In this document: piece by piece, positions 21,880 to 50,119 of the stretch | Position numbering within the stretch: the first letter of the stretch is position 1 | Layout of the letters: each line of letters starts with the position of its first letter | IMG/VR virus record: IMGVR_UViG_3300043568_000902 | DNA: 64,000 bases | Direction: 5' to 3' (one strand) | DNA from: an uncultured virus (IMG/VR IMGVR_UViG_3300043568_000902) | Taxonomy: Duplodnaviria; Heunggongvirae; Uroviricota; Caudoviricetes | Program-made: the position numbers and the translations under genes | The notes under the pieces: model-generated | What the model saw: only the letters and a program-made list of their open reading frames with translations | Told to the model about the DNA's origin: nothing | The model's database searches: none

Positions 21880-21896
21880 TCTTAACCAATACTTAT

Positions 21897-21940: not shown

Positions 21941-21966
21941 ACCTTATATCTTTGTAACTTAGTACT

Positions 21967-22524: not shown

Positions 22525-22545
22525 TAATTTAAAAACCAACATATT

Positions 22546-22674
22546 ATGAAATGTGCAAATTGTGGAGCAGCCTTGAGTTGTGGCTGCCAAAAGAGAACAA
22601 GTAAAGATGGGAAACAAGTGTGTACAAAGTGTATACACTCCTATGAAGCAAAAAAGCAAGAAGCTAAAAAATAA
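22546..22674 (+). CDS. 42-aa Cys-rich micro-protein (CxxC-x5-CxC-x11-CxxC), not in ORF track
   Basis: MKCANCGAALSCGCQKRTSKDGKQVCTKCIHSYEAKKQEAKK; has the AAACCAAC leader and fills the gap. Confidence 0.7.
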   Translation: MKCANCGAALSCGCQKRTSKDGKQVCTKCIHSYEAKKQEAKK

Positions 22675-22677
22675 ATA

Positions 22678-24597: not shown

Positions 24598-24600
24598 AAT

Positions 24601-25647: not shown

Positions 25648-25676
25648 AACGTAAATTTTTTTGTAAATTATATATA

Positions 25677-27188: not shown

Positions 27189-27198
27189 AATATAAACT

Positions 27199-27756
27199 AT
27201 GGCTTGCTCAACTTGTAAATCAACAAATACCACATGCGGTTGTAAGGATGTTCCCCTTACAACTGCACCTTCATATACCTGTCCTCCTGATATCAAATGT
27301 CCGGATCCAACTCCATGCTATGAGACTATTCAGGATACCTGTGTAAAACACAGCTTAGATTATAGTATAGCAAACTTTGGTAGACTATTAGCTAATGGTG
27401 ATCCATATCCTACATTAGCAGCAGGAGCTTCTCTTGAGAATGCATATCAAGCTATGTCAGTAGAAATACTTGATGAGGCTTGCTTACCTCCTGTAAATGT
27501 TCATCCTAGTTATGTTGGAACTACAACAATAGTTTTAAACTGGGAAAACACAGGAGCTGGTTATTATATTGCAGCTATAGGAACTACAGAAACTGGCCCA
27601 TTTACACCAACAGTAAACTTATCTGCAACTACTTATACATTTGTAAACCTTAACCCAAGTACAAGATATTACTTTAAAGTACAATCATATTGTAATGGTG
27701 GTAGTGATTTTTCATTTGGAGCTACTATAGCAATAACTACAAAATCAGCATTATAG
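27199..27756 (+). CDS. Cys-rich protein with an FN3 domain
   Basis: PPVNV...TTTIVLNW...YTFVNLNPSTRYYFKVQS is a canonical FN3 pattern. Confidence 0.75.
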   Translation: MACSTCKSTNTTCGCKDVPLTTAPSYTCPPDIKCPDPTPCYETIQDTCVKHSLDYSIANFGRLLANGDPYPTLAAGASLENAYQAMSVEILDEACLPPVNVHPSYVGTTTIVLNWENTGAGYYIAAIGTTETGPFTPTVNLSATTYTFVNLNPSTRYYFKVQSYCNGGSDFSFGATIAITTKSAL

Positions 27757-35358: not shown

Positions 35359-38300
35359 TGGCTAAAGTAAGTAAGTATGGACAATGGAAGTATCCTGGTG
35401 AGGATACAATAGTTCCAACACCGGATGGTCGTATAACAATGAAAGATGTACCTTACCCAGTATTAGGTATAGATAACAAAGGCAATCGTCAAATGATGAT
35501 GCCTGGTATGGATTACCAGTTTTCTGGCAAGTCTGTATATGAGATACCTATGGTTAAGAGTGGAGGAACTAGAAAGGTTAAGATTAAAAAATTACCTAAG
35601 GCTCAAATTATAGGAGGTATTGAATATCTAGGGGACGTTACTCAAGATGAGGATAATTACTGGGAGCAAAGTTATAACAAATGGATAGGTAAAAAACTGT
35701 CACCTGAAGAGGCTTATAATGCGGCAACAGCTGATGTAAATGCACGACGTGGACCATCTCATCCATATTATGTATATAATGCAAATAGCGGTTTACCAAA
35801 TGAAAATTCTGGAGTAGTTGTTCCAGCACAGAAACCAAACCCTTATAAGCATCTTCAAGATTGGCCGGATTTTAATGAATCTGGATCAGCGCAAGATTTT
35901 TATGGTAATACAGATGATGCAGTAAAATGGGAGAAACAATGGTATAGTAGAAGAGCAAATTTACCACAGTTTAAAGATATTGCTGAAAAAAGATTAAGTC
36001 TTGCTGACAGCATAGAGATGCAGCCTTGGAGTGCAGATAATTGGCAAAATTCTTTAAGTCCTTATGCAACTGGTTATTACTCATGGGATGATGCTACTGT
36101 AAATATACCTCAATCCTATTTTAGTAGACCTTCATTATACACTCATGAAAGAAGCCACTGGTATGACTATAATGCTCCTCAGGATAACATGGTAACTAGT
36201 TACTATAAAGGAAAACCAATTCCTCTATATAATGAGTATGATCCAATTTTAAATAATATTATACCTGATGAGTATATGACACCTGGTGGGGAAGGTGCAA
36301 CAAATGATGTTTATTCTAAAGAAGGTATATACTCACCATTTACCAATGATGATCCTAACTATGATGTTAACTATTATTATAATCCGACAGAGGTAAGGGC
36401 TCGCTTAAATGAATGGCGTAGAAGACTTAATATAGATCCTACAAAAAATTATAGTAATGATGAAATTCAGCAAATTATTGATAAGGATATAAATTCTGGA
36501 GATCGCGGTAGTTTTGATTTATACAAAGTTCTTAGAGGTAGAGGTGATTTATTAAAACAAATCAATGACTCTTATGTGTCTACAGGTGATAAAGAAAATT
36601 CTGATGAATTGCCTAAAGCTCAAAGAGGATTACGTAAAGCTCAAACTGTAGGTCAATTTTCTAATCCTAATTTTAAATCTAGTTATGATTGGAGAAAAAG
36701 TCCTGCAGAAAATGCTGAGCTTAATAGAAGAGCTGAAGCAGCTGGTCATAACTCTGTTGGTGAGTATGAAGCATCAGGTTGGGCATGGCAGCCAGAGAAA
36801 ACTCACTTTACTAAAGGACAAGGAACGGGTATAGGTATAATTAAAGCTCAACCACAACAGCAAACCTGGGACCAGCAAGTAATGCAAGGAATACCGGGAG
36901 TACCTGCAGCACCTCCTAAAGCAGCACCTAGTATAGAAGATCAAGTATATAGTGATAGATACAGAATTCCAGAAAATGAAAATGACATAGACTATTCAAC
37001 AGTTATAAAATCTAAAATTCCAGGATTGTCAAAGTCTACTCATCCTGATGTACAAATGCTGCAGCAAAAAGAAGCAGCTGATGTAGCAGAATGGGTAGAT
37101 ACTAAATATAAAGAAGAATCTCCAGAAGAGAAAGAACAAAGAAATAGAGAAAGTTTTATAAAATATAACACTACACCGGGTAAAGAAGATCTGGAAAAGG
37201 TAAACCCAGAAACTGGTTATGCAAAAGCTGCATATACAGGACGTCCTGGAGCTGGTCCAAAGTTAGGAGGAATGAGTTTATGGAATCCTGAAGATGTTGC
37301 AAATAGTGGAATAACTGATACTGATGTAAACGAATACTTAGAGGCCCTATATAATAATCAACAACAAGCAGATAGGGTAGCTCAAATAACACTTGATTTA
37401 GGTTTTTCAAAGGATGAAAAAGAAAAGGAACGTTTAAGTGCTGAATTAAAAGACAAAAAATATATTTTAGCTCAATCCGATAAAGTTCTTAATAATACAG
37501 CATTTACTAAAAAGCTTTGGGATTATCAGACAGGAAGACAAGAAGCCGCAAATAAGGCTAATATGATTGGTACAGCAACATCAACTATGGGACCTTTAGA
37601 TGCTGCAGTAGGTTTAGCGGCAGGTCTTCCTGCTTTATCCGCAACAATGGCTGCACCTATATTAGGAACTAGTCTTACATTAGGTAGTGCTGTTAATCCG
37701 TTTTTTTATGCGGCAGGTATCAATGGATTTTTAAATCCTAATTCTGATTTTAGTCAAGCAGCAGAAGCTTGGAGTAAAGGTAAGGGTAGCGGAACAGATG
37801 TTCTTTTGGAAGCAGGACTTAACACATTAAACTTTTTAGGATATAAGTCTGTACCTACAGATATTGGCAACTTTGGAAAAGCTTACAAAGAAATAGCTAC
37901 CGGAGAATCTATTATACCGTATGCATGGAAAAGTCCTGCAGTAGGTCTTTCTCAAGAAGCAAGTGCTGATATGTTTAACTCACTTCTTAACAGCGGTAAA
38001 ATGACACCTGTTGAAAGAAATATTGTTTTAGAATATCAAAATAATCCTAGTGCTTTTACAGGAAGATTTGGTAGTGTAGATCCTGTTAAAAGAAGTGCAT
38101 TAAATGATATAATAGGTAAATATGAATTACAGTTTCCGCAAAACTCTAATGCGATTGCTACAAGAAGATTTAATTTTAATCGGGGTAATCTTGGCGCAAA
38201 TATAGAAAATGGTAGAATAAATTTTGGAGATAGGCCCACATCATTTAGTGCTGGATTAGGTATAGAAGGATATAATGGTGCTCCTGATAGACTTGTAATA

Positions 38301-40361
38301 CCTAGTAGATATCTTCCAAAAATGAAGAATAATTTTATAACTCAGGAGTATAGTGCAATACCAAAAGAAAATTTAGAATTAATAGGTCAACCAAGTATGA
38401 CTTCAAGAGAGAAACTTATAGATTTTGGTTCGGGTATTGGAACTACAAATGAAGCTATAAATGCAGAAAGAGAGTTATTAGGTACAGGATTAGACTTTAA
38501 GCAAATAGGTAAAGTTAAAAATGATATTGGTGGTTTTGACTATGTAGTTAAACCAAGGAATATTAAACCTAAAATAGATACGAGTACAACACTTAAAGTA
38601 TTACCAGGATCTCCTAATTCAGCTCAATATCAAATTCGTGGATTAACAGGAACTAGTACAAAAACTGGTTTAACAGAAGAAAATGTTGCTGCTGCAATTG
38701 AGAGAGAAAAACAATGGATTCAATCTGATGAATATATAAGAAGACGCGCTGCTAATACAGGAGAAACAGTTGAACAAATTAAAGCTGATGTTGCTAAAAT
38801 TTTATCTACTGCAGAAGATGCAAGATTTAATTTAAATGCAAATATTACGGCTCAGGGTCAGATGACACCTAAAAGTCTTTTTAATAGAGTTCCTGGAGTA
38901 GAAGTAGCTAAGCATGCATATAATCCAATAAATACTCTTGAGCATGAAACGGGTCATTTATATTCACCAAGTATTCATGGTCAAACTGATGCTGCACTTC
39001 ATAAAGGAATGTTAGAAGCTGATGTTGCAAGTTTACCAGCTTCAGAAAGAGGTGTTTATGCTAATTATCCTACACTAGGAAAAGGATTTGACAAAACGTC
39101 AGATGCTATTAAGTTAGGAGCTGAAGAAAATTATTTAAACTTAGGATATGAACAACAAGTAAGACATTTAAATGCAAGAGCTGATATTTTAAAAGCTAAT
39201 AATTTACCACTTGAAGCTCACTTAACAGAAGCAGAAGTTAAACCTTTTGTAGACACTTGGGCTGAAAAGATGAGCAAGCTTGTAAAAGATCCTAAAAATC
39301 CTGATCTTCTTAAAGGTGAAATGGATTATGATGAACTATGGTTACAAGAAGCTTTAAAAATTAGAGAAGGTTTATTAAAGGAATATGGTGTAGCAGCAGA
39401 TTCAGAATTAACTGCTGCACAAAGACTAGTATATAAACAAAGAACCAGAGAAGAATTAACAAAAGTTATAACTGATGTTTTAAATAAAGCATGGATTGCA
39501 GTACCTGCTATTGGTGTAGGAGCAGGAATGCAACAAAAGAAAAGAGGCGGTGCTGTAAACGCTATCTCTAAATATAAAAACAAATTTGCAAGTAAAGTAA
39601 ATAATGATTTACCTATAGCTCAATCCGGAGCTGAAGTTGATTATTATATGTCATCAAAAAAACTTAATGATGAGAAGAACAGGATTGCTCAAATGAGAAA
39701 CAATGTTATTCCTATAAGTCTTAGTCATAGTGCTAGCTCAGATAATAAACCGTTTAATGTAAAGCTTCCTGAGGGCCAACATTATTGTACAACAAGAGCA
39801 TGTGAAATAGAACGTGAAGCAGGGTTTCCAATTAACCAAGTTGCATCCGGATATAAACTCATGAATGAAACAACTCCTGAGAATGGCTGGTACCCTACAG
39901 CATATAATGACTTACTTCCTGGAGATATTGCACAAATTATAAGAACTGTTGGAGGAGGTCATACTATGGTATCGGCAGGAGATGCTGGTAATGTGCCTTT
40001 ACAGTTTCGTGGAGAAGCGGATCCTAATCAAAAAGCATTTTATGCAGATAGTGGTGAGGGTAATAATTTTAACTTTTTATCTCCTAAATCAGAAAACACT
40101 TTAGCACGTTGGATGGATAATGTTAAAAAAATAAACTACTATACTTATAAAGGTAATCTTCCGCAGTATCAAAAAGAATTTCAGCAAGCTGCTCATAATT
40201 ATTTGCATGATACTTCAGAAGGAGACTATGGGCCTATGGCACCTATTGATGCAATACCTCATAAAAAACAAGGTGGTATGCAAAAAGCTAAAACTAGAAA
40301 AGATAAAGGGTTCCAAATTCTTACAGATGCTAATGGTAAGTACGTGTTTGTTAAAACCTAA
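35358..40361 (+). CDS. Multidomain virion cargo protein (zincin, hydrophobic segment, ART-like, zincin, NlpC/P60-like)
   Basis: HERSH 36144, R/SFS/ERE 38163-38474, HETGH 38943, Cys 39786 and His 39960 with LLPGD. Confidence 0.6.
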   Translation: MAKVSKYGQWKYPGEDTIVPTPDGRITMKDVPYPVLGIDNKGNRQMMMPGMDYQFSGKSVYEIPMVKSGGTRKVKIKKLPKAQIIGGIEYLGDVTQDEDNYWEQSYNKWIGKKLSPEEAYNAATADVNARRGPSHPYYVYNANSGLPNENSGVVVPAQKPNPYKHLQDWPDFNESGSAQDFYGNTDDAVKWEKQWYSRRANLPQFKDIAEKRLSLADSIEMQPWSADNWQNSLSPYATGYYSWDDATVNIPQSYFSRPSLYTHERSHWYDYNAPQDNMVTSYYKGKPIPLYNEYDPILNNIIPDEYMTPGGEGATNDVYSKEGIYSPFTNDDPNYDVNYYYNPTEVRARLNEWRRRLNIDPTKNYSNDEIQQIIDKDINSGDRGSFDLYKVLRGRGDLLKQINDSYVSTGDKENSDELPKAQRGLRKAQTVGQFSNPNFKSSYDWRKSPAENAELNRRAEAAGHNSVGEYEASGWAWQPEKTHFTKGQGTGIGIIKAQPQQQTWDQQVMQGIPGVPAAPPKAAPSIEDQVYSDRYRIPENENDIDYSTVIKSKIPGLSKSTHPDVQMLQQKEAADVAEWVDTKYKEESPEEKEQRNRESFIKYNTTPGKEDLEKVNPETGYAKAAYTGRPGAGPKLGGMSLWNPEDVANSGITDTDVNEYLEALYNNQQQADRVAQITLDLGFSKDEKEKERLSAELKDKKYILAQSDKVLNNTAFTKKLWDYQTGRQEAANKANMIGTATSTMGPLDAAVGLAAGLPALSATMAAPILGTSLTLGSAVNPFFYAAGINGFLNPNSDFSQAAEAWSKGKGSGTDVLLEAGLNTLNFLGYKSVPTDIGNFGKAYKEIATGESIIPYAWKSPAVGLSQEASADMFNSLLNSGKMTPVERNIVLEYQNNPSAFTGRFGSVDPVKRSALNDIIGKYELQFPQNSNAIATRRFNFNRGNLGANIENGRINFGDRPTSFSAGLGIEGYNGAPDRLVIPSRYLPKMKNNFITQEYSAIPKENLELIGQPSMTSREKLIDFGSGIGTTNEAINAERELLGTGLDFKQIGKVKNDIGGFDYVVKPRNIKPKIDTSTTLKVLPGSPNSAQYQIRGLTGTSTKTGLTEENVAAAIEREKQWIQSDEYIRRRAANTGETVEQIKADVAKILSTAEDARFNLNANITAQGQMTPKSLFNRVPGVEVAKHAYNPINTLEHETGHLYSPSIHGQTDAALHKGMLEADVASLPASERGVYANYPTLGKGFDKTSDAIKLGAEENYLNLGYEQQVRHLNARADILKANNLPLEAHLTEAEVKPFVDTWAEKMSKLVKDPKNPDLLKGEMDYDELWLQEALKIREGLLKEYGVAADSELTAAQRLVYKQRTREELTKVITDVLNKAWIAVPAIGVGAGMQQKKRGGAVNAISKYKNKFASKVNNDLPIAQSGAEVDYYMSSKKLNDEKNRIAQMRNNVIPISLSHSASSDNKPFNVKLPEGQHYCTTRACEIEREAGFPINQVASGYKLMNETTPENGWYPTAYNDLLPGDIAQIIRTVGGGHTMVSAGDAGNVPLQFRGEADPNQKAFYADSGEGNNFNFLSPKSENTLARWMDNVKKINYYTYKGNLPQYQKEFQQAAHNYLHDTSEGDYGPMAPIDAIPHKKQGGMQKAKTRKDKGFQILTDANGKYVFVKT

Positions 40362-40443: not shown

Positions 40444-43362
40444 ATGATAAAAAAGTATGACATGGGAGGCCCTTGGCAAGATATACTTGGAGAAGAGTTT
40501 GATAACTCATTAAATCATGTTGATTTAAATAATCCAGATATAAGCTTAAGCAAACCTGGTGGGATTAATCTTAAGCATGTTTATGATAACTTTAATATAA
40601 AGTTAAAGAAACCTGGTATGGGTGGTGCCGGTTTTATGGATAACCACCCATACTTAACTGATACTGTTCGCGGAGCAAAATCTTTACTGCAAATGGGATT
40701 AGACTCCCGCAACATGAATGCTGCTAAAGATGCTCAAAGAGATTACTTTAACGATGTTCGTAATCTTTATACTTCATATGATATGAAGAAGTATGGGCAA
40801 ACACCGTTCTTAAATCAAACTGCAACTAATGTGCAATTTCCAAATGAAATGGTGATTCCTTATGAGCAAGAAGTTGGTGGCTACCCTAGATATAATAAAC
40901 AATATCAAAATGTAAGACTTGCTAAAAAGGGCGGGTCTCAATTGTATCTAGCATTTCAAGGCGGAGGTCCTGTTAGTGAAACGGGATCTTTAGGAAATCT
41001 ACCTAAATATAAAATGGGCTCACTATCTCCAGTACAAAGAGTACTAGCGTTAGATGCACAACACTACGGAATACCTATGGCAAAAAACGGCGGAAACTAT
41101 TTTGTTCCAGAAAAGTTAACTAATAATACTGAGAACTTTGAGTATTATGAGAAACCTGGAAAATTCTTGGGCTATGTAAAAGATATGGCTCAAAACGCAA
41201 TCCTACAAGAAGCTTTAGGAAGAAAGCGTAAGGGTGAGATCGAAGATGATATGCCAATGGCACAAATGGGTATGGGCATTGGGAACTTTGAAGAATTTGG
41301 TTATGATAGCAATAATGAGTTAAATGATGCTTATGCTAGTATGTATAACCCTCAAACCCAAAAACAATTTAATCAAAGTGCGCCGGAAAATTTCTTGCGT
41401 TCTGCAAAAATGGCATTCTCTAAACCAATTGCTAATCGTCAAGAAAAACAAGCTGAGCAACAGCAACAAATCAATACTTTACTAGATATTTATAATAATA
41501 ACATGAATTATCAAACTGCACGAAACGGAGGTTTAAAAAGATATGAACTTGCCGGTATAACTAAACCAACTGCAACAACAGCAGCTGATTTTGAAAATTG
41601 GTATAACACTACTTTGGGTAACCTTATTCAAAGTGGTGCAGATCAAAACAAAATTAATTCCTTTGTTACACAAGCAAGACAATGGGCAGATGATGCTCGA
41701 AAATATCAAAATATAGGTGTTGACCCAAATCAAATGGGCTATAAAAACTTAAATCCAAATACTGTACAAGGATCAATGGATCCAGCATTTGAAGCTGACT
41801 TAGATAAAACTATAGCTGAATTTGAAGATAAATATGCAACAGCACAAGCTAATGGTGCAAGTCAAACTGAATTAGATAAGATTTTAGCTGATCAAGATGC
41901 TGCTGTTAAAGGTGTTGTTGGTGGTCAAAGTATTGATGCTTCTGGTAATATGACAGGTGGTTGGTCAGGTAAATACAATCCTAAAGTAAACAATGTACCT
42001 GCAGATTATTATGGTGCTCCTAATGTAACACAACCAGGTGCTACTCCTGGAGCTACACCAGGTGCAGCTACTACACCAGGCGCTACACCAGGAGCTGGAA
42101 CTAATCAGCAAAACTATAAACCAATGTTTGATCCAGCAGTAATGAATGTATTAGCTGCAATGGCTCAAGGATATACTAAAACTCCATTCCTTGGTTTTAG
42201 AAGCAATCGTAATATGAGAGCTATGTTGAATCAAGCTATGGCTCAATCATTATTAAACTATGTTCCTGGTGCTGGTACTCAAGTAGGACCACAAGGTGGA
42301 AACGCACCTGCAGGTACAGGTGCTGGTACTGGAACAGGTGCTGGAGCTGGCACTGCTCCTCAAGCAGGTATGGATTATAACTCATGGATTAAAGATAATA
42401 ATATCAATAGATATGATATTACTCAGCGTCCTAATGTATATAAGATGAGAATTAGAGCTAATCAAGCTGGTCAAAGTCTTGCACAAGTTGATGCTAATGG
42501 TAACCCAATTCCTGGTGCTGACTCCGGTCCAGGTTTATTTGAAAGACTACGTGAAAATAAACAAGAACGTGTATTAAATAGAGAAGAGCGTAAAGCAGAA
42601 AGACAAGCACGTAAAGACGGTAGAGGATCTTCTGAAATAAATCCTAGACGTATGGAGCGTCAAGTAAGAAGAGACTATAAAAAATTCATGGAGGATCAAG
42701 AAGCTGAAAGCACATATAGAAAAGATCCGAATTCATATAGCCCTGTACTAACAGAGCCAATGTATGATTTTCTTAATCCTCCTGCTGGTGCACCTCCTTT
42801 GATGCCAGGTTATGGCCCAGGTACTCCAATGGGACCAGTTGGTGTTGGTAATGTCATTCCTCCTCCAGGTTCTGCACCAGCTCCAGGATATTCCACACCC
42901 CCTATGAATATGGGACCTGGATATCAAAATACAAATCCTATTATGAGTGGTTCACCATACACAGGTACACCATTTGATCAAGGACGTGCTGGTCAAGTTA
43001 TGCAAAATGACATAGCAAAAAGAAATAGATTTACAGAAATAATGCGAGGAATGGGTAGCTCTGCGGCAGATACTGGTGAATATGGACCAATGGATCCTAA
43101 TACAGGAATGTATCCTAAAACGCCAGCTACACCTGCACCATCTCCAGCTCGAGTTCGTACAAGTTCATCAGGTCAAGGATCCGCTAGCCCAGCTGATATG
43201 GATGCTGCATGGGAAGAATACATGCGCAGTATGAATACAAAAGCATATGGCGGTAGTTATGCTATGGGCGGTATGTATCAACAAGGTGGTGTTTATGATT
43301 TAGATGATAGCACAGTAGAAGCATTAAGAATGCTTGGTTATGATATTGAGGACTTACAGTAA
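40444..43362 (+). CDS. Low-complexity (G/P/Q/M/N-rich) virion cargo protein
   Basis: Composition, many xxGG motifs, position in the cargo cluster. Confidence 0.55.
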   Translation: MIKKYDMGGPWQDILGEEFDNSLNHVDLNNPDISLSKPGGINLKHVYDNFNIKLKKPGMGGAGFMDNHPYLTDTVRGAKSLLQMGLDSRNMNAAKDAQRDYFNDVRNLYTSYDMKKYGQTPFLNQTATNVQFPNEMVIPYEQEVGGYPRYNKQYQNVRLAKKGGSQLYLAFQGGGPVSETGSLGNLPKYKMGSLSPVQRVLALDAQHYGIPMAKNGGNYFVPEKLTNNTENFEYYEKPGKFLGYVKDMAQNAILQEALGRKRKGEIEDDMPMAQMGMGIGNFEEFGYDSNNELNDAYASMYNPQTQKQFNQSAPENFLRSAKMAFSKPIANRQEKQAEQQQQINTLLDIYNNNMNYQTARNGGLKRYELAGITKPTATTAADFENWYNTTLGNLIQSGADQNKINSFVTQARQWADDARKYQNIGVDPNQMGYKNLNPNTVQGSMDPAFEADLDKTIAEFEDKYATAQANGASQTELDKILADQDAAVKGVVGGQSIDASGNMTGGWSGKYNPKVNNVPADYYGAPNVTQPGATPGATPGAATTPGATPGAGTNQQNYKPMFDPAVMNVLAAMAQGYTKTPFLGFRSNRNMRAMLNQAMAQSLLNYVPGAGTQVGPQGGNAPAGTGAGTGTGAGAGTAPQAGMDYNSWIKDNNINRYDITQRPNVYKMRIRANQAGQSLAQVDANGNPIPGADSGPGLFERLRENKQERVLNREERKAERQARKDGRGSSEINPRRMERQVRRDYKKFMEDQEAESTYRKDPNSYSPVLTEPMYDFLNPPAGAPPLMPGYGPGTPMGPVGVGNVIPPPGSAPAPGYSTPPMNMGPGYQNTNPIMSGSPYTGTPFDQGRAGQVMQNDIAKRNRFTEIMRGMGSSAADTGEYGPMDPNTGMYPKTPATPAPSPARVRTSSSGQGSASPADMDAAWEEYMRSMNTKAYGGSYAMGGMYQQGGVYDLDDSTVEALRMLGYDIEDLQ
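42034..42102 (+). repeat. PGAT peptide tandem repeat
   Basis: PGAT PGAT PGAATT PGAT PGAGT. Confidence 0.8.
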
Positions 43363-43370
43363 ATAAACAT

Positions 43371-46073
43371 ATGAAGAGAGTTAGAATTAAAGGTTTACCA
43401 CAAGCAAAAAAAGGTGGTTCAAAGTATCCTGATATTTATTTTCAAGCAGCACCTTGGGCTCTTCATAATACTGCAGGAGATCCACCAACTGAGGCTCGTA
43501 AATCTGTTCAGCGAGATGATGAAAACCCCAACCTTGAGGCTGAGGGTGGCGAGACTGAATTAACTACTATTGGTGGTTTACCAGCACATTTTAATATTAA
43601 TGGTCCGTCACACGCTGAAGGTGGTGTACCTATGCGTGCCACCGAAGATTCTTTTATCTTTAGTAAATTCCTAAAGATGCCAAAGGACTTAGCAGAATAC
43701 TTTGGGTATCCTATTAAAAAGGGTAAGTCACAAACTTCTAAATATTCTTATGCAGATGCTGCTAAGAAATATGGGGGCGTTGTAAATGACGCAAGACAAA
43801 TTATGGCAGATCCTAATGCTACTAAGATGGATATTACTACTGCAGAGTTAAACATTAAAAACTCTATTGATAAGCTGGGTCAGATTGCCCTAGCTCAAGA
43901 AAGTAGTAAAGGTCTTAAAGAAATACCATCTTTAGCAATACCTTACTTAATGCGCGTGGGTGCAGACCCTGCAGCTTTAATGCCATTAGCAGATAATGAA
44001 GGCGCGGAGCAGCAACCAGGTAATGAAATGGCTGAAGGTCAAGAAATGCCAGAAGCAAGATATGGCGGATTACCAATTGCACAAACTGGTAAGATGCGTA
44101 GAATTCAACGCCGCATTAACAGATTAAAAGGAGCTCAGGTTCAACCTCGTATTATTGTTGATCCATACACTGGAATGACATATAATGTTGATGGATATGG
44201 AAATATCATTAATGCTCCATTTGGAGGCCAAGGTAATTTCATGAATCCAAATCTTGAAAGAAATAGAACAACTCCTGTTACAACACAAGAGTTAAGTGAT
44301 GCTTGGGCAAGGATGTCAAATCAGCAAAGTGCGCAACAACCTAGAAGTACTACAACCACTATTAAGTATCAACCTCCAAAAGGAGCTATTGTTATTACTA
44401 GGACTGAGGGTGAAAGTGATGAGGCATTCCAAGCTCGTTTAAAAGAAGAATTTAAAAAGGCTTCAAATAAAAACTTAGTTTATACTGTAACTCCTTCCGG
44501 TGGCTATCAAAAAGTAACTGCAAAAAAAATTGCAAAAGCTTTACCTTCTTCTTACACAGAAGATCCAAGACTTGGTAAACTTAATAATAACTATGCATAC
44601 GTTGAAAGTTTATTAAGTGATCCTAAGAATGATGATATAGTAACTAAGATGTATGAAAACTACAAGGCTGAAATCAACTCTAGTTCTAAAATTACCAGTG
44701 CTGAAAAAGCAAAACTATTAAAGTTAGATAAGAAACAAGTTCTTGACTTATTTATGAAAGCTCAAAAACAAGTATTTGCAATACATGAAGGAGAGCAAAG
44801 TGGTAAGGTAGAAACCCCTATTACAAAAGATGTTAATGACATTTGGGATAAGAGTGGTAATGCTGAGTATAAAAAAACTATGAAAGCCCTTGGGTTTTCA
44901 GATGATGAGATATTTGATACAGATAACATTGTTGCTTTCCAAGCTGCCTATAGAGGTCTTCAAAAAGCATCAATAGATGATTCAGCTATTGCAGAAAAGC
45001 TAAAAGAATTTGACTTAATACCTAGAGGTATGCGTGATAAAGGAGACTATGATCCTTTAAATGACCCAATGGGAAGACAAATGTCTGGTGTAGATAAAGT
45101 ATGGGGTAACACAACTGCTGGTCAAGGTTTATTTGCAAAAGGTAATTTAGAAGATGAGATCTTAGATCTTAAAGATATTAACGATCAAACTAAAACTGAA
45201 TATCCTTTAGAAGATATACCTGAGCTACCTGAGTACACAGCTCCGCATGAGTTACAGTATTTGGGACCAGATGTAAATAACATGGTTGCTAACTTGGCTA
45301 TTATGGCTAATCAACCTAATGTTATGCCAATGCCAGGTGTTACACCAAGTGTTCCTATACAAGGGGCTTATTTAGATCCAAGTAGAGAGATTGCTGAAAC
45401 TCAAGGTTTAGGATCTACAATAGTTCGTGGATCAGGTGTATATGGTAAACCACAAGCTTATGCTGGTGCAACCGGAGATATTCAAGGTAAAGTTTCAGAA
45501 GCTATTGCTAATACATTAGGTAAATTCTATAATGCTAATAATGAAATCTACGATAATCTAGGAAAACTTAGATATGATAGAGATTTTAAAGTAGGATTAT
45601 TGGGTGCTGAAAATGCTAAAACTTACTATGATGAGTTAACGCAAAAGATTCAAAACCAAAAAGATATTCAAAATCAAGCTATTGCACAAACAGCACAGCT
45701 GAAAAATGCTATGGATGTTAATGCCGCTGATATATATAATCTTGAGGAGATGAATCAAAACAGGTACCTTATAGATAAACCAAGCGGAGTAGTATATTTC
45801 AACAAACCTAGAAAACTTACAGGTCAAGTAGATCCTCAGCAATTTGAACAAGATCTTGAAAGAATTCAAGAACTTATGAGAACTGGTGTTAGTGCTGACC
45901 AAGCAGCTAGATCTGTTATGGGTACTAAGGGCGCAACCGAATCTGAAGATGCTAGTGGTATTGCTGCTATAAATAAAGTATTACAGCAACAAGCTATGGC
46001 TGCTCAACTTAATCCTAGCATGATGCAAGCTTACATGCAAGCTGGTACAGGTGCAATGCCTTATCCATATTGA
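43371..46073 (+). CDS. Virion cargo/ejection protein (crAss cargo C1-like)
   Basis: NLEAEGGE...GPSHAEGGV...SFIFS N-terminal motif characteristic of crAss-like cargo proteins; C-terminal coiled coil. Confidence 0.65.
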   Translation: MKRVRIKGLPQAKKGGSKYPDIYFQAAPWALHNTAGDPPTEARKSVQRDDENPNLEAEGGETELTTIGGLPAHFNINGPSHAEGGVPMRATEDSFIFSKFLKMPKDLAEYFGYPIKKGKSQTSKYSYADAAKKYGGVVNDARQIMADPNATKMDITTAELNIKNSIDKLGQIALAQESSKGLKEIPSLAIPYLMRVGADPAALMPLADNEGAEQQPGNEMAEGQEMPEARYGGLPIAQTGKMRRIQRRINRLKGAQVQPRIIVDPYTGMTYNVDGYGNIINAPFGGQGNFMNPNLERNRTTPVTTQELSDAWARMSNQQSAQQPRSTTTTIKYQPPKGAIVITRTEGESDEAFQARLKEEFKKASNKNLVYTVTPSGGYQKVTAKKIAKALPSSYTEDPRLGKLNNNYAYVESLLSDPKNDDIVTKMYENYKAEINSSSKITSAEKAKLLKLDKKQVLDLFMKAQKQVFAIHEGEQSGKVETPITKDVNDIWDKSGNAEYKKTMKALGFSDDEIFDTDNIVAFQAAYRGLQKASIDDSAIAEKLKEFDLIPRGMRDKGDYDPLNDPMGRQMSGVDKVWGNTTAGQGLFAKGNLEDEILDLKDINDQTKTEYPLEDIPELPEYTAPHELQYLGPDVNNMVANLAIMANQPNVMPMPGVTPSVPIQGAYLDPSREIAETQGLGSTIVRGSGVYGKPQAYAGATGDIQGKVSEAIANTLGKFYNANNEIYDNLGKLRYDRDFKVGLLGAENAKTYYDELTQKIQNQKDIQNQAIAQTAQLKNAMDVNAADIYNLEEMNQNRYLIDKPSGVVYFNKPRKLTGQVDPQQFEQDLERIQELMRTGVSADQAARSVMGTKGATESEDASGIAAINKVLQQQAMAAQLNPSMMQAYMQAGTGAMPYPY

Positions 46074-46148
46074 ACCTAAATTTTAAAAAGTTAAACTTTT
46101 TAAAGTTATTAAATTTTAAAAGTTTTTCGTATATTTACAGTATAAACT

Positions 46149-47696
46149 ATGGCAACGTACTTACAAGGAAGCAATAAATACATACCGCAGATACAACCGT
46201 ATCAGCCGGATCTTAATTTTTATAAGACTGTACTTGAGACAAAATCAGCTCAATATGATCAGGGCTATACCCGTGTTAATAATATTTACGGTACTTTATT
46301 AAACTCACCTCTTAGCAGACAAGATACTGCGCAAATGCGAAATGATTTCTTTTCAAAAGCTAATAATGAAATACAAAGGTTAGCGGGTATGGATTTATCT
46401 TTAGAGGAAAACCAAAACGCAGCTTTCAAAGTATTTAAACCATTGACAACCAACCCTTTATTTGCAAAAGATATTGGCTATACTAAGAACTTACAAAAAG
46501 CATTTGATAGAGCAGACTACTTTAAAAATTGTTTAAATCCTAAAGAATGTGGTGATAAGTATTGGGAAGAGGGTGTTGCTTATTTAAATTATCAAGCTCA
46601 AGATTTTGCTAATGCTGATGCTGATAAAGCATTAAGAATGTCATCTCCTGAGTATGTGCCATTTGTAAATATTGCTAAAGAGGCCCTTAAGTATTTAGGT
46701 GATAGTAAATTTGAAATGCAAACCATACAAAGTGATGGTAGATATAACTACACAATTACTAATGGTGTACCTGCAGAAGCTCCTTTACATAACTATCTTT
46801 TAGCAATGTACGGGAATGATGCTAATCTTCAAAAGATGTATAAGGTTTCAGCATACTTGCAAAGAAAACAATATGGTGAAGAACATGCAGAAGAATTTGG
46901 CGGAACTCAAGAAGCTGAAAGAGATTATATAGGTAAAGTTCTTAAAGCGCAAGATGAAACATTGCGCTCATATAAAGAAGAGGTTGCTAGTAGACAAAGA
47001 GAAATTAATGCTAAAAAATCTGTAGCTGATAAGTATATTCAAAATGAAGGTGTTGATCCTGATGCGGATCAAGACTTTGTAAAATATTATCAATCGTTAA
47101 ATTCTGATTTACAAGCTACAACTGCTACAGATGATTATTATTCATCAGCTTTAGATGATACATTACCATCGGCAGTAGAAAGCTTAGACTTTGATGTACT
47201 TGCAGAAAGAATAGATAATATGTTAGGCATGTCTATTCTTGATTCTGATATGGCGCAGATTGCATCAGCTTATGCAACAACTACACAAAAGATTGAAAAA
47301 GAAGTTGACGAAATTTATTTAACTCAGCTTAAGCATCAGAACTCTTTATCTGAGATTGCAGCAAGAGGTTCTGTACAACAAAGTTTAGAAAAAACTAGAC
47401 AAGCTAATAGACTAGAAGAATTATATTGGGAGTCTAAATTAGGTGTTGGTAGAAGTTCAACTACAAATAAAGACGGTACTCCTAAGATTAATAAAACTAC
47501 AACACCAGGATTAGAGTTTTTAACAGACGCTGAAATTTTACAATATAAAGATAATATAAATAAAAACTCACAGCGTGAAGAAGGCTGGTCTGTAAAAGGA
47601 ACGGATCCTTATGCAGAGGGTAAAGATTATGAGTTATCAGAAGAAGATATTAAAAGGCTTGAAGAACAAGGTTATGTTTTTGAAGAAATTGAATAA
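46149..47696 (+). CDS. Virion cargo/ejection protein
   Basis: MATYLQG...QIQPYQPD start; helical; cargo-cluster position. Confidence 0.6.
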   Translation: MATYLQGSNKYIPQIQPYQPDLNFYKTVLETKSAQYDQGYTRVNNIYGTLLNSPLSRQDTAQMRNDFFSKANNEIQRLAGMDLSLEENQNAAFKVFKPLTTNPLFAKDIGYTKNLQKAFDRADYFKNCLNPKECGDKYWEEGVAYLNYQAQDFANADADKALRMSSPEYVPFVNIAKEALKYLGDSKFEMQTIQSDGRYNYTITNGVPAEAPLHNYLLAMYGNDANLQKMYKVSAYLQRKQYGEEHAEEFGGTQEAERDYIGKVLKAQDETLRSYKEEVASRQREINAKKSVADKYIQNEGVDPDADQDFVKYYQSLNSDLQATTATDDYYSSALDDTLPSAVESLDFDVLAERIDNMLGMSILDSDMAQIASAYATTTQKIEKEVDEIYLTQLKHQNSLSEIAARGSVQQSLEKTRQANRLEELYWESKLGVGRSSTTNKDGTPKINKTTTPGLEFLTDAEILQYKDNINKNSQREEGWSVKGTDPYAEGKDYELSEEDIKRLEEQGYVFEEIE

Positions 47697-47710
47697 TTAA
47701 AAATTGGATT

Positions 47711-50119
47711 ATGCCCAAAGTTAGAGTATTAAAAGCACCAGGTGCTCCAGTAAAAGCTACACAAGGTATAGACCAGAGTACTGGTTTACCAATTCGTGTA
47801 TCTAGTGTATATACAGGAACTCCTGATACAACATTTTTTAATCCTGCAAATAGAGGTGTAGGATCACAAATGTTTGCGGGTAATGTGCAAAGTGAAGAAT
47901 CTAAAGCGGTATCAAACCCATTTAGTCTTAAGAATCCTTACATGGAGACTAAGCAAAAGACTGGTGACTTTGTAAGAAATATTCACAACTTTTACATGGA
48001 TAAGGCTAAAAGTACTACAGATCAAAATGAAAAACTTTCTGCTATTGCATCAATTAAAAAGATGTTTCCTAAATCAGACATTGATCCTAATACCGGTGAG
48101 CTTATAAAAGAATTCAAGATGCCAGAAGTTCCTGGAGTTACTTCAGCATTTGATGCATTAAAAGTAAAGTATCAAGTAGATCCACTTGAACCAGATGTTG
48201 TAAAAAAAGGTGAGTATGAATCTACATCTCAAAAGAGAGCTAAACAAGGAGTAGACCCATACGTAGCTTTAAATGTTTTAGAAAATCCAGACTCTAAAAG
48301 AATTTTTGATAACGTAGTTAGTACATATAAAAATGATGTATTAAGTAAGAATGATCCTAATCGCATTTCTCTTTTGCAAGAAGCAGATAGAGTAGGAGAA
48401 GAATTTACCAAGACTTCCGCTAAATATACTATTGATCAAATTAATGTTGGAAAAGTATTTACTAAACTTGATCAAAATTTGGGATCAACTGCAGGATTAT
48501 ATAAGCAATGGTTTTATGAGGATAAAGGTAATTCAGGAAGCGGTTTAGCTAAAGGTAGTATTATAGATCAAGGAGGTTATCAAAGTAAACTTCGTTCAGA
48601 CGAATTAGTAAATGATTATGCTGACATGTATGTTGATTGGGCTATTAATTCATCAAGTAGTAATTTCTATTTTAATGGTAGACAGGCATCAAGTCATTTA
48701 ACAGATGTTGCAGATGAGTTTCATGAGTTTGCTCAAGGACAGTTAGGTCTTAACTGGGCGCAACAAATGTGGTATGGTCAAGAAAATACAGATGACCTTA
48801 TAAGAATGTTAGATGAAAGAGGTGCTAATGGTAAAAAAATGTTTAAAAAATTTGTAATAGATTACTGGTCTAAGAACGGTATGGACATTTATCAAGGTAT
48901 GGATGAAACAATGTCTACAGATCGTGGTGCGGAAAGTATTGAAAGTAATTACCCGTTCATGGCTGCACCAAGTGCAACATCATATGCGGACATATTTACA
49001 GCGGCTTATCAAAGTAAATATGGTACTAAGGGTGTAATATTAGCAATGGATAATGCACAAAAGCTTTCTAAATTACCAGGCTATGATAGCTTTTATAAAG
49101 AATACAGCAAAGCTGCTGTAGATGATAAAAATGACTTACTTTCATATAATCCAAAAGGGTTAGGTGAAGTTACAGGAGAAGGACAAGGTGCTAAGTTTGC
49201 TCTTCCTTATACAATTAATTATGATGCTTCTTTACCAACTACAGGAGAGTTATTTTTAGGAGATCGGCCTGCACAACAAGATTTATCTGGTAATGCATTC
49301 TTACCCAGTGTGTTAAATAACTTTTTTGACATTAATAGTCAAACTGCCGCAAGTAGAGATAACCTAACGTTTTCAGATAAACCATACTTATTTGATGGTG
49401 ATATGAATGCGCTATTAACAGAGTTAGATATTACAGATTCCCCTGCAAAAAATTGGGATTGGGACAACACAATTTCTACAAACCTTGACGACAAACATGA
49501 CGAGGCTATAGATGCAAACTCCCTAGATATAATCAAGGCTTATTTAAAAGATACAAATAACTATTATGGGAAACAAAGTGAGGATGCAAGACCTAAAGGA
49601 GAAATTAAAATATTTCCATTAGGAGCATCAACTGATTTATTTTCTGGTTACCAAATAAGTATAAATGGAAAGTGGTTAAAATCAAAAGGTTATCAAGAAG
49701 ATGAGAATGATAAAACCTATTCTATGTTAATACCTACAGGTAAAACTAATAATAAGGCATATAATTCAATTAGAAAATCAGATTGGGTAGACATGGTTAT
49801 TCAAGCTGACGGTGGTATTTCATATAATCTAGATGGTGTTGGTAACTTTAAAATTGGAACTAAAATTATTAAAGGTAAAGAGTATTACACAGTTAACTCA
49901 AGCTATTATAATTTAGATGCTACAACAGGAAGATTGAAACAAGATAACTTTAGAGAGCGTATATTTGAAAAAGGTTTTTATAGTGGTGAAATGTTATACG
50001 AGCAACTTAAAGAAAAGTTTTTAAGTACGCAGTATAGCAATGAAAACACCAAAATGGAAGCTAAGCGCAATAGCACAAATCTTATCTTTGACCCTAGTCA
50101 ATTATTACAAACGCCTTAA
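47711..50119 (+). CDS. Putative virion cargo/ejection protein
   Basis: Long ORF in the cargo cluster; no Cys seen. Confidence 0.5.
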   Translation: MPKVRVLKAPGAPVKATQGIDQSTGLPIRVSSVYTGTPDTTFFNPANRGVGSQMFAGNVQSEESKAVSNPFSLKNPYMETKQKTGDFVRNIHNFYMDKAKSTTDQNEKLSAIASIKKMFPKSDIDPNTGELIKEFKMPEVPGVTSAFDALKVKYQVDPLEPDVVKKGEYESTSQKRAKQGVDPYVALNVLENPDSKRIFDNVVSTYKNDVLSKNDPNRISLLQEADRVGEEFTKTSAKYTIDQINVGKVFTKLDQNLGSTAGLYKQWFYEDKGNSGSGLAKGSIIDQGGYQSKLRSDELVNDYADMYVDWAINSSSSNFYFNGRQASSHLTDVADEFHEFAQGQLGLNWAQQMWYGQENTDDLIRMLDERGANGKKMFKKFVIDYWSKNGMDIYQGMDETMSTDRGAESIESNYPFMAAPSATSYADIFTAAYQSKYGTKGVILAMDNAQKLSKLPGYDSFYKEYSKAAVDDKNDLLSYNPKGLGEVTGEGQGAKFALPYTINYDASLPTTGELFLGDRPAQQDLSGNAFLPSVLNNFFDINSQTAASRDNLTFSDKPYLFDGDMNALLTELDITDSPAKNWDWDNTISTNLDDKHDEAIDANSLDIIKAYLKDTNNYYGKQSEDARPKGEIKIFPLGASTDLFSGYQISINGKWLKSKGYQEDENDKTYSMLIPTGKTNNKAYNSIRKSDWVDMVIQADGGISYNLDGVGNFKIGTKIIKGKEYYTVNSSYYNLDATTGRLKQDNFRERIFEKGFYSGEMLYEQLKEKFLSTQYSNENTKMEAKRNSTNLIFDPSQLLQTP

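What the first reader, a model, noticed from the sequence alone, without database searches (positions are those of the whole stretch)
43276..47740. Candidate head-to-tail docking system chaining consecutive ejection proteins
Two otherwise unrelated proteins end in an ungapped 28-aa acidic module: YQQGGVYDLDDSTVEALRMLGYDIEDLQ* (43276-43362) and YAEGKDYELSEEDIKRLEEQGYVFEEIE* (47610-47696), with 8 identities and a beta-alpha-beta pattern. In both cases the next gene begins with a matching basic strand: MKRVRIKGLP (43371) and MPKVRVLKAP (47711). A third strand, RKVKIKKLP, is near the N-terminus of 35358..40361, and a third partial acceptor, VELTDDDKEALYELGYSRSDI, is inside the giant protein (54310-54372). 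Inference: strand-complementation docking pairs, analogous to NRPS/PKS docking domains, that link cargo proteins in gene order for co-packaging or sequential ejection. I know of no description of this.
Basis: partly seen in the sequence, partly recalled or inferred. Interest (0 to 1): 0.8.

Follow-up and report, generated by a model that had tools for sequence, protein, structure and literature searches.

The report
Docking tags joining phage cargo proteins
In this crAss-like phage, and in many uncultured relatives, a gene for an injected particle protein often ends in a short acidic tail and the next gene begins with a short basic strand; the two tags appear where a protein is split into two genes and are missing where it is fused, so they most likely clip the two halves together.

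Summary
Both acidic C-terminal modules (A; 43255-43359 and 47586-47693) and the basic strands that open the next genes (B; 43371, 47711) are there. A third B lies inside the 35358 protein. The proposed third acceptor in the giant protein (54310) is not an A module.

A is a widespread module. A profile of it finds 1140 protein clusters, and in 147 of the best 150 it sits at the C-terminus. No Pfam family covers it.

Among 261 non-redundant gene junctions from relatives, 37 of 40 A-ended genes are followed by a B-started gene. Of 221 other junctions, 5 are.

The 515 and 802 aa proteins are one unsplit protein without A or B in 57 relatives. Only the 3 split forms carry A and a basic strand. Two natural fusions of the 972 and 900 families keep the flanking sequence but lack A and the B strand.

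AlphaFold2 models a natural protein with B at its start and A at its end as disordered except for these two parts: a strand, and strand-helix-strand.

Best reading: non-covalent docking joints between adjacent cargo proteins. Binding itself is not shown. In this window they make two separate pairs, not one chain. My two full-text searches found no published description.

The parts
40444..43362 (+). Gene for a 972-aa, largely low-complexity cargo protein that ends in module A
   Evidence: ORF list. No Pfam or PHROG family. It lies in the block downstream of the crAss muzzle gene 30085-35358 (PF25731).
43255..43359 (+). Module A, copy 1: acidic C-terminal strand-helix-strand module, directly before the stop codon
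   Evidence: Profile hit E 5.7e-14. Aligned with 33 orthologous C-termini (A2). AF2 on A2: the last 30 residues have pLDDT 72-87, with a helix at residues 43-51 of 60.
43371..43421 (+). Module B, copy 1: N-terminal basic strand followed by LPxAxxGG, at the start of the 900-aa protein, 8 nt after the stop of the upstream gene
   Evidence: Profile hit E 1.5e-6. Aligned with 33 orthologous N-termini (A3).
43371..46073 (+). Gene for a 900-aa cargo protein that starts with B
   Evidence: No Pfam or PHROG family.
46149..47696 (+). Gene for a 515-aa protein: the N-terminal half of a protein that is unsplit in most relatives
   Evidence: Homologues. Fused forms of 1492-1595 aa and unsplit forms of 924-1176 aa. 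Tree.
47586..47693 (+). Module A, copy 2: C-terminal acidic module of the 515-aa protein
   Evidence: E 3.2e-11 with the full profile. E 1.5e-4 with the profile built without it. Conserved in homologues at 45-92% identity.
47711..47764 (+). Module B, copy 2: a divergent N-terminal basic strand opening the 802-aa protein, 14 nt after the stop of the upstream gene
   Evidence: Weak profile score (E 0.069; E 4). The alternating basic/hydrophobic N-terminus is kept in the partners of the other split lineages.
47711..50119 (+). Gene for an 802-aa protein: the C-terminal half of the split protein
   Evidence: BLASTP to residues about 800-1491 of the fused L002/L005 proteins.
35571..35603 (+). Internal copy of B (aa 72-82 of the 1667-aa first cargo protein), preceded by Gly-Gly
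   Evidence: Profile E 0.015. The same position holds a B in the L002 orthologue.
54310..54372 (+). Segment of the giant protein proposed as a third acceptor; not an A module
   Evidence: Not among the ten best hits of the A profile (tenth E 43) and absent. It is conserved only as part of the giant protein's own sequence in orthologues.

Best explanation
A and B are two halves of a small non-covalent joint. A is a C-terminal module of about 30-36 aa: Gly-Gly, strand, acidic amphipathic helix, Gly-Gly or Gly-Tyr, strand, then the end of the protein. B is a 7-10 aa strand of alternating basic and hydrophobic residues, usually followed by LPxAxxGG. It sits at the very start of the protein encoded by the next gene.

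I propose that the B strand inserts beside the two short strands of A, forming a three-stranded sheet packed on A's helix. This would hold the two adjacent gene products together one-to-one. It would work like the docking domains of PKS/NRPS subunits, or like donor-strand complementation in pili.

In this window it would join 972 with 900, and 515 with 802. The second pair are the two halves of a protein that is a single chain in most relatives.

What is shown:
- The motifs are real and widely conserved.
- A is almost always at a C-terminus.
- A-ended genes are followed by B-started genes.
- A and B go together with the split state.
- AF2 predicts the expected secondary structure.

What is inferred:
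- Direct A-B binding.
- That the joint keeps cargo proteins paired for packaging into the particle and for ejection.
For: 1. A is a real, widespread C-terminal module.
- A profile of 34 orthologous C-termini finds 1140 representative proteins at E<=1e-3 and 126 at E<=1e-10 among 1.84 billion.
- In 147 of the best 150, A ends within 6 residues of the C-terminus. Two of the other three are repeat proteins that I read as false positives.
- A sits on different protein families, such as M23-peptidase proteins P0141 and P0168 and the glucosaminidase protein P0128.

2. Adjacency.
- Of 261 non-redundant same-strand gene junctions in 80 metagenome loci plus the window, 40 upstream genes end in A. Of these, 37 are followed by a gene whose first 9 residues match the basic-strand pattern. 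A 38th (L068) has a variant that the pattern missed.
- Only 5 of the 221 junctions without a terminal A have the basic-strand pattern (Fisher p 6e-36, but the rows are related by descent).
- The gaps seen run from 1 to 106 nt and the frames differ.
- In 11 further IMG/VR loci found through A alone, all 10 with downstream sequence start with a B-like strand.

3. More than one junction class.
- 972|900 in most loci; 515|802 in the window, L001 and L010/L011.
- First cargo|972-like in L045 and L067.
- L092 has a run of three proteins. The middle one, an M23-peptidase protein, has a B-like start and A at its end, and the next gene starts with B. I had expected this arrangement from P0141 before fetching the locus.

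4. A and B go with the split state.
- In the 515 family, the tree has 57 non-redundant unsplit rows. One search found no A inside any complete unsplit gene and no B on the gene that follows. The 3 non-redundant split rows have A and a basic strand.
- The split rows are nested in a clade with 100% SH-aLRT support among unsplit ones, so the split is derived.
- Two natural 972-900 fusions (P0173, 1605 aa; P0174, 1730 aa) keep the conserved sequence on both sides but lack A and the B strand.

5. Joint decay. In the L044-L075 clade, A is truncated or degenerate and the next protein starts without B.

6. Constraint is on the protein. Conserved positions use several synonymous codons and conservative swaps (I/V, Y/F, K/R).

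7. Structure.
- AF2 of P0093 (297 aa, B at the N-terminus, A at the C-terminus, 8-row alignment) is below pLDDT 50 everywhere except two parts. Residues 1-10 have pLDDT 79 with a strand at 2-8. Residues 268-297 have pLDDT 80-83 with strand 274-277, helix 279-287 and strand 291-294.
- The trimmed model aligns over 36-42 residues at rmsd 1.9-2.5 A to compact chains 38-145 residues long. These alignments span model residues 1 (or 2) to 294-297, which implies that the two parts are packed together in the model.
Against: 1. No binding has been measured or confidently predicted.

2. B is more common than A and is not confined to N-termini.
- It occurs internally after Gly-Gly: window aa 72 of the 35358 protein, and about aa 225-235 of the 900 family in L013, L014 and L072.
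- It occurs at extreme C-termini of the protein upstream of the 972 family in 10 non-redundant loci, and at the end of the 900 family in L088.

3. Exceptions to pairing.
- L003 and L005 have a B-started gene after a gene without A.
- L041 keeps a recognisable A but the next gene has no clear B.

4. Most adjacency rows are one orthologous junction inherited by descent. The independent events are few: roughly three or four junction classes, one or two fissions, two fusions and one joint loss.

5. The window's second B scores poorly against the profile (E 4).

6. The AF2 result is a cis model from a shallow alignment. The tool gives no contacts, so the pairing is inferred. In the monomer model of A alone, the flanks are not assigned as strands.

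7. In L010/L011, A is followed by a further 44 residues, so a free C-terminus is not strictly needed.
Confidence: 0.6

Rival explanations
1. A and B are independent address tags that do not bind each other. Each would be read by a third party such as the portal, the capsid interior, a scaffold or DNA, to load cargo proteins into the particle. This would resemble the N-terminal capsid-targeting sequence of T4 internal proteins. They lie next to each other only because each marks a protein end.
For: B occurs without a neighbouring A, internally and at C-termini. B-started genes follow A-less genes in L003 and L005. A sits at the C-terminus in 147 of 150 top hits, as expected of a tag that needs a free end. 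B is strongly basic and could bind DNA.
Against: Independent tags do not explain why both vanish together in the fused 972-900 proteins. A fused protein would still need loading. They also do not explain why both are absent from the unsplit 515-802 family (57 non-redundant rows in the tree), nor why both appear at the one point where that protein is split. AF2 makes the two parts the only ordered elements of P0093, apparently packed together.
Confidence: 0.2
2. A and B are proteolytic processing signals. The Gly-Gly motifs that bound both modules would be cleavage sites, as for adenain at (M/I/L)-X-G-G|X or for double-glycine leader peptidases. A and B would be pro-peptides removed during maturation.
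For: Both modules are bounded by Gly-Gly, and Gly-Gly motifs punctuate these proteins. A's helix followed by Gly-Gly recalls double-glycine leaders; this resemblance is recalled, not tested. Earlier notes of this scan raise the same idea for Gly-Gly junction tags.
Against: No protease family was found in the cargo proteins scanned against Pfam and PHROGs. Cutting after A's second Gly-Gly would release only a 6-residue peptide. The link between A/B and the split state of genes is not explained by processing. No cleavage data exist.
Confidence: 0.08
3. The A-stop-start-B unit is a recombination cassette or footprint that splits genes when it lands in them. It would be kept for expression reasons, such as translational coupling or an A-rich start region, with no role for the peptides themselves.
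For: A and B appear together at a derived fission point. A is modular and sits on unrelated proteins. B starts with Lys/Arg codons that are A-rich.
Against: Conservation is at the amino-acid level, with synonymous and conservative changes. It extends over about 36 plus 17 residues, well beyond any start-site context. The gap varies from 1 to 106 nt and the frames differ. The two window junctions share only 8 of 28 residues, so neither is a recent copy of the other.
Confidence: 0.07
4. Chance similarity between low-complexity acidic tails and lysine-rich starts.
For: The two window copies share only 8 of 28 residues, and the second B is weak.
Against: Profile E-values in the window. 1140 database hits, almost all C-terminal among the best 150. 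The adjacency table.
Confidence: 0.02

Closest known systems
Docking domains of modular PKS/NRPS subunits (knowledge recalled, not from a call)
   Same: A short C-terminal element on the upstream subunit pairs with a short N-terminal element on the subunit encoded next. Separately translated proteins thus assemble in gene order, and fused and split versions of the same assembly line exist.
   Different: No sequence relation: no Pfam family matches the window's cargo proteins. The context is phage particle cargo, not a biosynthetic assembly line. The predicted joint is one strand plus strand-helix-strand. Binding is unproven here.
Donor-strand complementation in chaperone-usher pili (recalled)
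   Same: An N-terminal strand of alternating hydrophobic residues from one subunit completes the sheet of the neighbouring subunit, giving head-to-tail linkage.
   Different: The pilus acceptor is an incomplete Ig-like domain of more than 100 aa. Here it is a 30-36 aa module. Pili are homopolymers or ordered polymers, whereas these are pairs or short runs of different proteins.
Cargo proteins C1 (gp45) and C2 (gp46) of Bacteroides phage crAss001 (Bayfield et al. 2023, PMC10172136; passages read)
   Same: Same genome block downstream of the muzzle gene, and the same presumed role as proteins stored in capsid and tail and ejected before the DNA. The paper says that the order of extrusion is likely to be controlled by packing and by mutual interactions.
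   Different: The passages I read describe no terminal docking motifs. I found no sequence match between this window's cargo proteins and the deposited phage records, so I could not test whether crAss001 has A or B.
Gly-Gly 'junction tags' in crAss-like cargo proteins noted earlier in this scan (AI notes, unpublished)
   Same: Same protein class. Both A and B are bounded by the hydrophobic-x-x-Gly-Gly peptides described in those notes.
   Different: As summarised, those notes concern joints within a chain. The present finding is a complementary pair across a gene boundary that replaces a covalent link.

Membership tests
PKS/NRPS docking domains | C-terminal element on the upstream subunit and N-terminal element on the subunit encoded next | tested here: met
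   37 of 40 A-ended genes are followed by B-started genes. Window junctions at 43359|43371 and 47693|47711.
PKS/NRPS docking domains | Sequence membership in a known docking-domain family | tested here: not met
   No Pfam family at E<=0.01 on the 972, 900, 515 or 802 aa proteins. 42 of 43 A-bearing representatives have no Pfam family, and the one hit is a glucosaminidase domain elsewhere in the protein.
PKS/NRPS docking domains | Direct, specific binding of the two elements | not testable with these tools
   Needs pull-down, ITC or NMR. The single complex-prediction job gave no verdict (see Tried and rejected).
Donor-strand complementation (chaperone-usher pili) | N-terminal extension strand with alternating hydrophobic residues | tested here: met
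   B consensus in A3. AF2 assigns a strand at residues 2-8 of P0093, with mean pLDDT 79 over residues 1-10.
Donor-strand complementation (chaperone-usher pili) | The acceptor is an incomplete Ig-like domain | tested here: not met
   A is 30-36 aa and predicted as strand-helix-strand.
Split inteins | Conserved nucleophile (Cys/Ser/Thr) at the first intein residue and at the +1 extein residue, terminal Asn, N-part of about 100 aa | tested here: not met
   A2 and A3 have no invariant Cys, Ser, Thr or Asn. The only invariant or nearly invariant positions are Gly, Ile and Val. The modules are about 36 and about 17 aa.
T4-type capsid targeting sequence | Short N-terminal peptide on internal proteins, removed by the prohead protease | tested here: inconclusive
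   B is N-terminal at the junctions, but it also occurs internally and at C-termini. No protease family was found in the proteins scanned. Cleavage cannot be tested here.
Adenain-type or double-glycine processing sites | Gly-Gly cleavage motif together with a cognate cysteine protease | tested here: inconclusive
   Gly-Gly bounds both modules. No protease family was detected in the 12 window proteins scanned against PHROGs or the 9 scanned against Pfam. The rest of the genome is not held.

The most novel reading that the evidence does not exclude
crAss-like phages have a modular 'protein-level splice'. Giant cargo polyproteins can be cut into separately translated genes and are re-joined after translation by interchangeable end-tags. 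The A|B strand joints described here are one kind, and Cys-Cys ends at the giant-protein junction are another. The injected proteins would then be loaded and expelled as ordered pairs or threads that follow gene order. Extra B copies would let the mostly disordered cargo proteins cross-link into one packaged body.
Probability: 0.3. Interest if true: 0.85.

Novelty: new variant of a known kind. Interest (0 to 1): 0.74.

Why it matters
It is an open question how podovirus-like phages choose, count and order the proteins they pack into the head and inject ahead of the DNA. The crAss001 structure paper says only that the order probably depends on packing and mutual interactions (PMC10172136, passages read).

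A conserved pair of end-tags that tracks where genes are split gives a concrete handle that can be mutated. One could test pairing in vitro, swap tags to re-wire partners, and ask whether pairing sets copy number or ejection order.

It would also help annotation. A C-terminal A or an N-terminal B flags cargo proteins in uncultured phages that have no other recognisable family. A|B boundaries show which neighbouring ORFs act as one unit.

If binding is confirmed, a heterodimerising pair of roughly 36 aa and 10-17 aa would be a compact protein-engineering tool.

Tried and rejected
- Complex prediction. The last 60 aa of the 972 protein (alignment A2) against the first 60 aa of the 900 protein (A3) scored 0.23 and 0.24 against a mark of 0.32. 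The tool's verdict was no answer, and the controls were not run. I count this neither for nor against binding.
- Deposited phage genomes. tblastn with the 515-aa protein, the 900-aa protein and a 60-aa A-bearing C-terminus found nothing. I therefore could not check cultured crassviruses for A or B.
- IMG/VR scans with the 515-aa protein, P0157, P0072 and P0168 found no relatives. Alignment A2 was too variable for that tool. A narrower alignment, A4, worked.
- A scan of IMG/VR with a DNA pattern for the end of A was not carried out (one search failed on pattern length, and I dropped the approach). The adjacency test on A-bearing genes of other families therefore rests on few loci (L092, L093).
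- No whole genome is held for this window.
- I first read the segment around the internal B of the 35358 protein as a fused A-B-A remnant. I dropped this because the flanking residues belong to a conserved N-terminal domain and are not kept in the L002 orthologue.
- Residue-level covariation between A and B. Inspecting 44 pairs by eye showed only clade-level differences that are confounded by descent. I made no claim from it.
- Fold search with the P0093 model gave only Z 2.5-3.5 matches to many unrelated small proteins. No fold is assigned.
- Split intein, sortase-like LPxTG and readthrough/frameshift fusion were considered. They were rejected on the lack of catalytic residues and on the varying gaps and frames.
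- Literature. Two full-text searches and passages of PMC10172136 gave no description of these motifs. For the other papers I saw only the search listings and the start of each abstract. No supplements were looked at.
Full report
CONTEXT. The window is a crAss-like phage. It carries a terminase (8718), a portal (10935) and a major head protein (15035) (PHROGs), and a Crassvirus muzzle protein (30085-35358, PF25731). Downstream of the muzzle gene, seven large co-directional genes follow (35358, 40444, 43371, 46149, 47711, 50122, 58914). None has a Pfam or PHROG family. In Bacteroides phage crAss001 this block encodes the cargo proteins that are stored in the particle and ejected before the DNA (PMC10172136, passages read).

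THE OBSERVATION. The C-termini share 8 identities over an ungapped 28 aa.

I built profiles from the orthologous 972|900 junction of other phages, leaving out the 515|802 sequences, and ran them over all 772 six-frame ORFs of the window.
- The 515-aa C-terminus is the second-best A hit (E 1.5e-4). The next hit is E 0.73.
- The internal copy in the 35358 protein is the second-best B hit (E 0.015).
- The 47711 N-terminus scores poorly (E 4).
- The segment in the giant protein (54310) is not among the ten hits listed (the tenth has E 43). It is a conserved part of that protein in orthologues, but not an A module.

MODULE A IS WIDESPREAD AND C-TERMINAL. Homologues of the 515-aa protein at 45-92% identity keep the module. 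One scan of metagenome contigs with that family returned 80 loci with 10-kb flanks.

In these loci, the protein two genes upstream of the 515 family (the 972 family) nearly always ends in the same module. The module reads: Gly-Gly, an aromatic residue, Gly-Gly (or Gly-Asp), a short strand, an acidic helix, Gly-Gly or Gly-Tyr, a short strand, then the end of the protein.

A profile of 34 such C-termini, searched against 1.84 billion representative proteins, gave 1140 hits at E<=1e-3 and 126 at E<=1e-10.
- Of the best 150, 147 carry A within 6 residues of the C-terminus.
- Two of the other three are repeat proteins that I read as false positives. In the third, A stops 10 residues before the end.
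- Most hits are 972-family orthologues, but A also ends unrelated proteins. Examples are the M23-peptidase proteins P0141 and P0168 (my reading of their sequences) and the glucosaminidase protein P0128 (PF01832).
- No Pfam family covers A: 42 of 43 representatives scanned have no family at all.

ADJACENCY. I called genes on the + strand of all loci and listed every gene that ends in A (43 rows including near-duplicates). By eye, 40 are followed by a gene that begins with the basic strand. The three exceptions (L041, L050, L051) have degenerate or weak A modules.

A stricter count used non-redundant junctions and a four-residue pattern within the first nine residues:

| | B-like start | no B-like start |
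|---|---|---|
| upstream gene ends in A | 37 | 3 |
| upstream gene does not end in A | 5 | 216 |

- One of the three A-only cases (L068) has a B variant that the pattern missed.
- Of the five B-only cases, L070 follows a divergent A that the profile missed, and L010 follows an A that lies 44 residues from the end.
- Fisher's p is 6e-36, but the rows share ancestry, so this number overstates the evidence.
- For the orthologous 972|900 junction alone: 43 non-redundant cases, 34 with both, 6 with neither, 2 with A only and 1 with B only.
- In 11 IMG/VR loci found through A alone, all 10 with downstream sequence begin with a B-like strand, at gaps of 3 to 106 nt.
- Gaps and reading frames vary. 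Conserved positions use several synonymous codons and conservative replacements. The constraint is therefore on the peptides, not on a nucleotide signal.

INDEPENDENT JUNCTIONS. The pairing is not confined to one orthologous boundary.
- In marine loci L045 and L067, the first cargo protein also ends in an A-type module and the 972-like protein begins with a B variant. This gives two consecutive joints.
- Proteins P0141, P0168 and P0093, and five others, carry B at the start and A at the end. From this I expected an A-ended gene upstream and a B-started gene downstream.
- Locus L092, fetched afterwards, fits. Its gene order is as follows.
  - A 796-aa protein with an A-like end (seen by eye only; not found by the profile).
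  - A 654-aa M23-peptidase protein with a B-like start and A at the end (E 1.3e-13).
  - A 765-aa protein with a B start (E 0.18).
  - The 515 family.
- L093 shows one further pair (A at E 0.047, B at E 0.07).

A AND B GO WITH THE SPLIT STATE. This is the strongest evidence.

(a) The 515|802 junction.
- One search listed 81 copies of the 515 family. Only the window, its close relative L001, and L010/L011 are split into a 513-571 aa gene plus an 801-866 aa gene. Two further short rows (L038, L054) look like fragments. Every other complete copy is one gene of 924-1595 aa, with no A inside it and no B on the gene that follows.
- BLASTP shows that the 1492- and 1507-aa proteins of L002 and L005 contain the 515-like part (residues 1-436). 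A low-complexity linker of about 350 aa follows. The 802-like part occupies about residues 800-1491. Neither motif is present.
- A tree of 68 non-redundant N-terminal regions puts the 3 split rows in a clade with 100% SH-aLRT support, together with 7 unsplit rows of 1492-1595 aa. All the other 50 unsplit rows lie outside it. This was the quick search; the three-way split inside the clade is unresolved, and the root is at the midpoint.
- The split is therefore derived. It arose once or twice, and A plus a basic strand are found exactly there.
- The partners in the three split lineages all start with alternating basic and hydrophobic residues.

(b) The 972|900 junction.
- A search for longer relatives of the 900-aa protein found two proteins, P0173 (1605 aa) and P0174 (1730 aa). 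In both, the conserved region that normally follows B lies in the middle of the chain.
- Upstream of it they keep the conserved segment that normally precedes A. P0173 also keeps the LPxA part that normally follows the B strand.
- The strand-helix-strand of A and the basic strand of B are both missing.

(c) Joint decay. In the clade around L044-L075, A is truncated and the next protein starts without B.

STRUCTURE.
- AF2 on the window's own A (60 aa, 34-row alignment) gives pLDDT 72-87 for the last 30 residues. It assigns a helix at residues 43-51 and no strands.
- AF2 on P0093, a natural 297-aa protein with B at its start and A at its end (8-row alignment), has mean pLDDT 40.7. It is below 50 throughout residues 15-267. 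Residues 1-10 have pLDDT 79 with a strand at 2-8. Residues 268-297 have pLDDT 80-83 with strand 274-277, helix 279-287 and strand 291-294.
- The tool returns no contacts. However, a seven-residue strand needs a partner. Also, the model trimmed to its confident parts aligns over 36-42 residues at rmsd 1.9-2.5 A to compact chains of 38-145 residues. These alignments span model residues 1 (or 2) to 294-297 (rows 2, 11, 28, 33, 45). The two parts therefore lie together in the model.
- The Z scores (2.5-3.3) are too low to name a fold.
It is a cis model from a shallow alignment, not a test of binding in trans.

WHAT DOES NOT FIT A SIMPLE ONE-TO-ONE CHAIN.
- B outnumbers A. It also occurs internally after Gly-Gly, at the extreme C-terminus of the protein upstream of the 972 family in 10 non-redundant loci, and at the C-terminus of the 900 family in L088.
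- L003 and L005 have a B-started gene after a gene without A.
- L041 keeps A without a clear B.
- In this window the tags make two pairs, 972 with 900 and 515 with 802. The 900|515 and 802|2929 junctions carry no tag. 'Chaining consecutive ejection proteins' therefore overstates the case here, although runs of three do occur elsewhere (L045, L067, L092).
- The extra B copies may bind A in trans, or B may have a second partner. I cannot tell which.

MECHANISM. My best reading (confidence about 0.6) is that A and B form a small non-covalent joint by strand addition. The joint would replace a peptide bond wherever a cargo protein is encoded in two genes.
- Placing A last and B first at tightly spaced genes would favour pairing as the second protein emerges from the ribosome. 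This step is inference.
- That the joint keeps partners equimolar in the particle, or orders their ejection, is a further inference.
- The rivals are: independent loading tags (0.2), processing signals (0.08), a gene-splitting cassette with no peptide function (0.07) and chance (0.02).
- The independent-tag rival is hardest to exclude. Its weak point is that fused and unsplit proteins lack both tags although they would still need loading.

COMPARISON AND NOVELTY.
- The joint works like PKS/NRPS docking domains and like donor-strand complementation in pili (both recalled from general knowledge). It is a member of neither: there is no family match, and the acceptor is a 30-36 aa module rather than an Ig-like domain.
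- It is not a split intein, because no conserved nucleophile or Asn is present.
- Two full-text searches and the crAss001 paper (passages) gave no description of it.
- Earlier AI notes of this scan describe Gly-Gly junction tags in the same protein class and terminal cysteines at the giant-protein junction. These are leads, not evidence. I checked the cysteine rule in my own loci; it holds in 19 of 20 non-redundant junctions.
- I rate the finding a new variant of a known kind: docking between products of adjacent genes, with a new module pair in a new biological setting.

Noticed in passing
window 58897-58899 (Cys 2926 of the 2929-aa protein) and 58929-58931 (Cys 6 of the next protein); the same junction in L002-L077: The giant protein has only 2 Cys in 2929 aa, one of them four residues from its end. 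The next protein has 1 Cys in its 1695 visible aa, at position 6. In 19 of 20 non-redundant relatives, a Cys lies within the last 9 residues of the giant protein and within the first 9 of the next protein, and these proteins have 1-2 Cys in total. This looks like a second kind of head-to-tail link (a disulfide?) at a junction that has no A|B tags.
   Followed up: partly
window 36609, 39609, 41071, 41251, 43395, 44070: A short [LMI]-P-x-A-[QK]-x-G motif, the second half of B, recurs six times in the 35358, 40444 and 43371 proteins and nowhere else in the six frames. It is often preceded by Gly-Gly. Aromatic-x-x-Gly-Gly peptides punctuate these low-complexity proteins, as earlier notes of this scan describe.
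   Followed up: partly
L011, L012, L015, L018, L019, L022, L023, L029, L056, L058 (end of the gene upstream of the 972 family); L088 4083-6911: The B strand also occurs as the last 15 or so residues of a protein (Gly-Gly, basic strand, LP, four to five residues, stop). It is followed by a gap of about 40 nt and a gene without B. Its partner is unknown.
   Followed up: no
window 35358-40361: The 1667-aa first cargo protein corresponds to two or three separate genes in relatives (L005: 967+ aa and 418 aa, the second starting with B). In the window's fused form only a degenerate B remains near aa 1417. The protein also contains an HExxH motif and a Cys/His-containing C-terminal region that may be cell-wall hydrolase domains (seen by eye; no Pfam hit).
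   Followed up: no
window 18265-18663: A 132-aa lysine-rich ORF in the head-gene block carries the same kind of basic-x-x-Gly-Gly peptides and ends in Gly-Gly-Ser-Val plus four lysines. It may be another small internal protein with these tags. No family was found.
   Followed up: no
window 20524-27756: Several Cys-rich proteins in the tail-fibre region (for example 21967-22524, which ends in a run of Cys-Gly repeats, and 22678-25647) contrast with the almost Cys-free cargo proteins.
   Followed up: no
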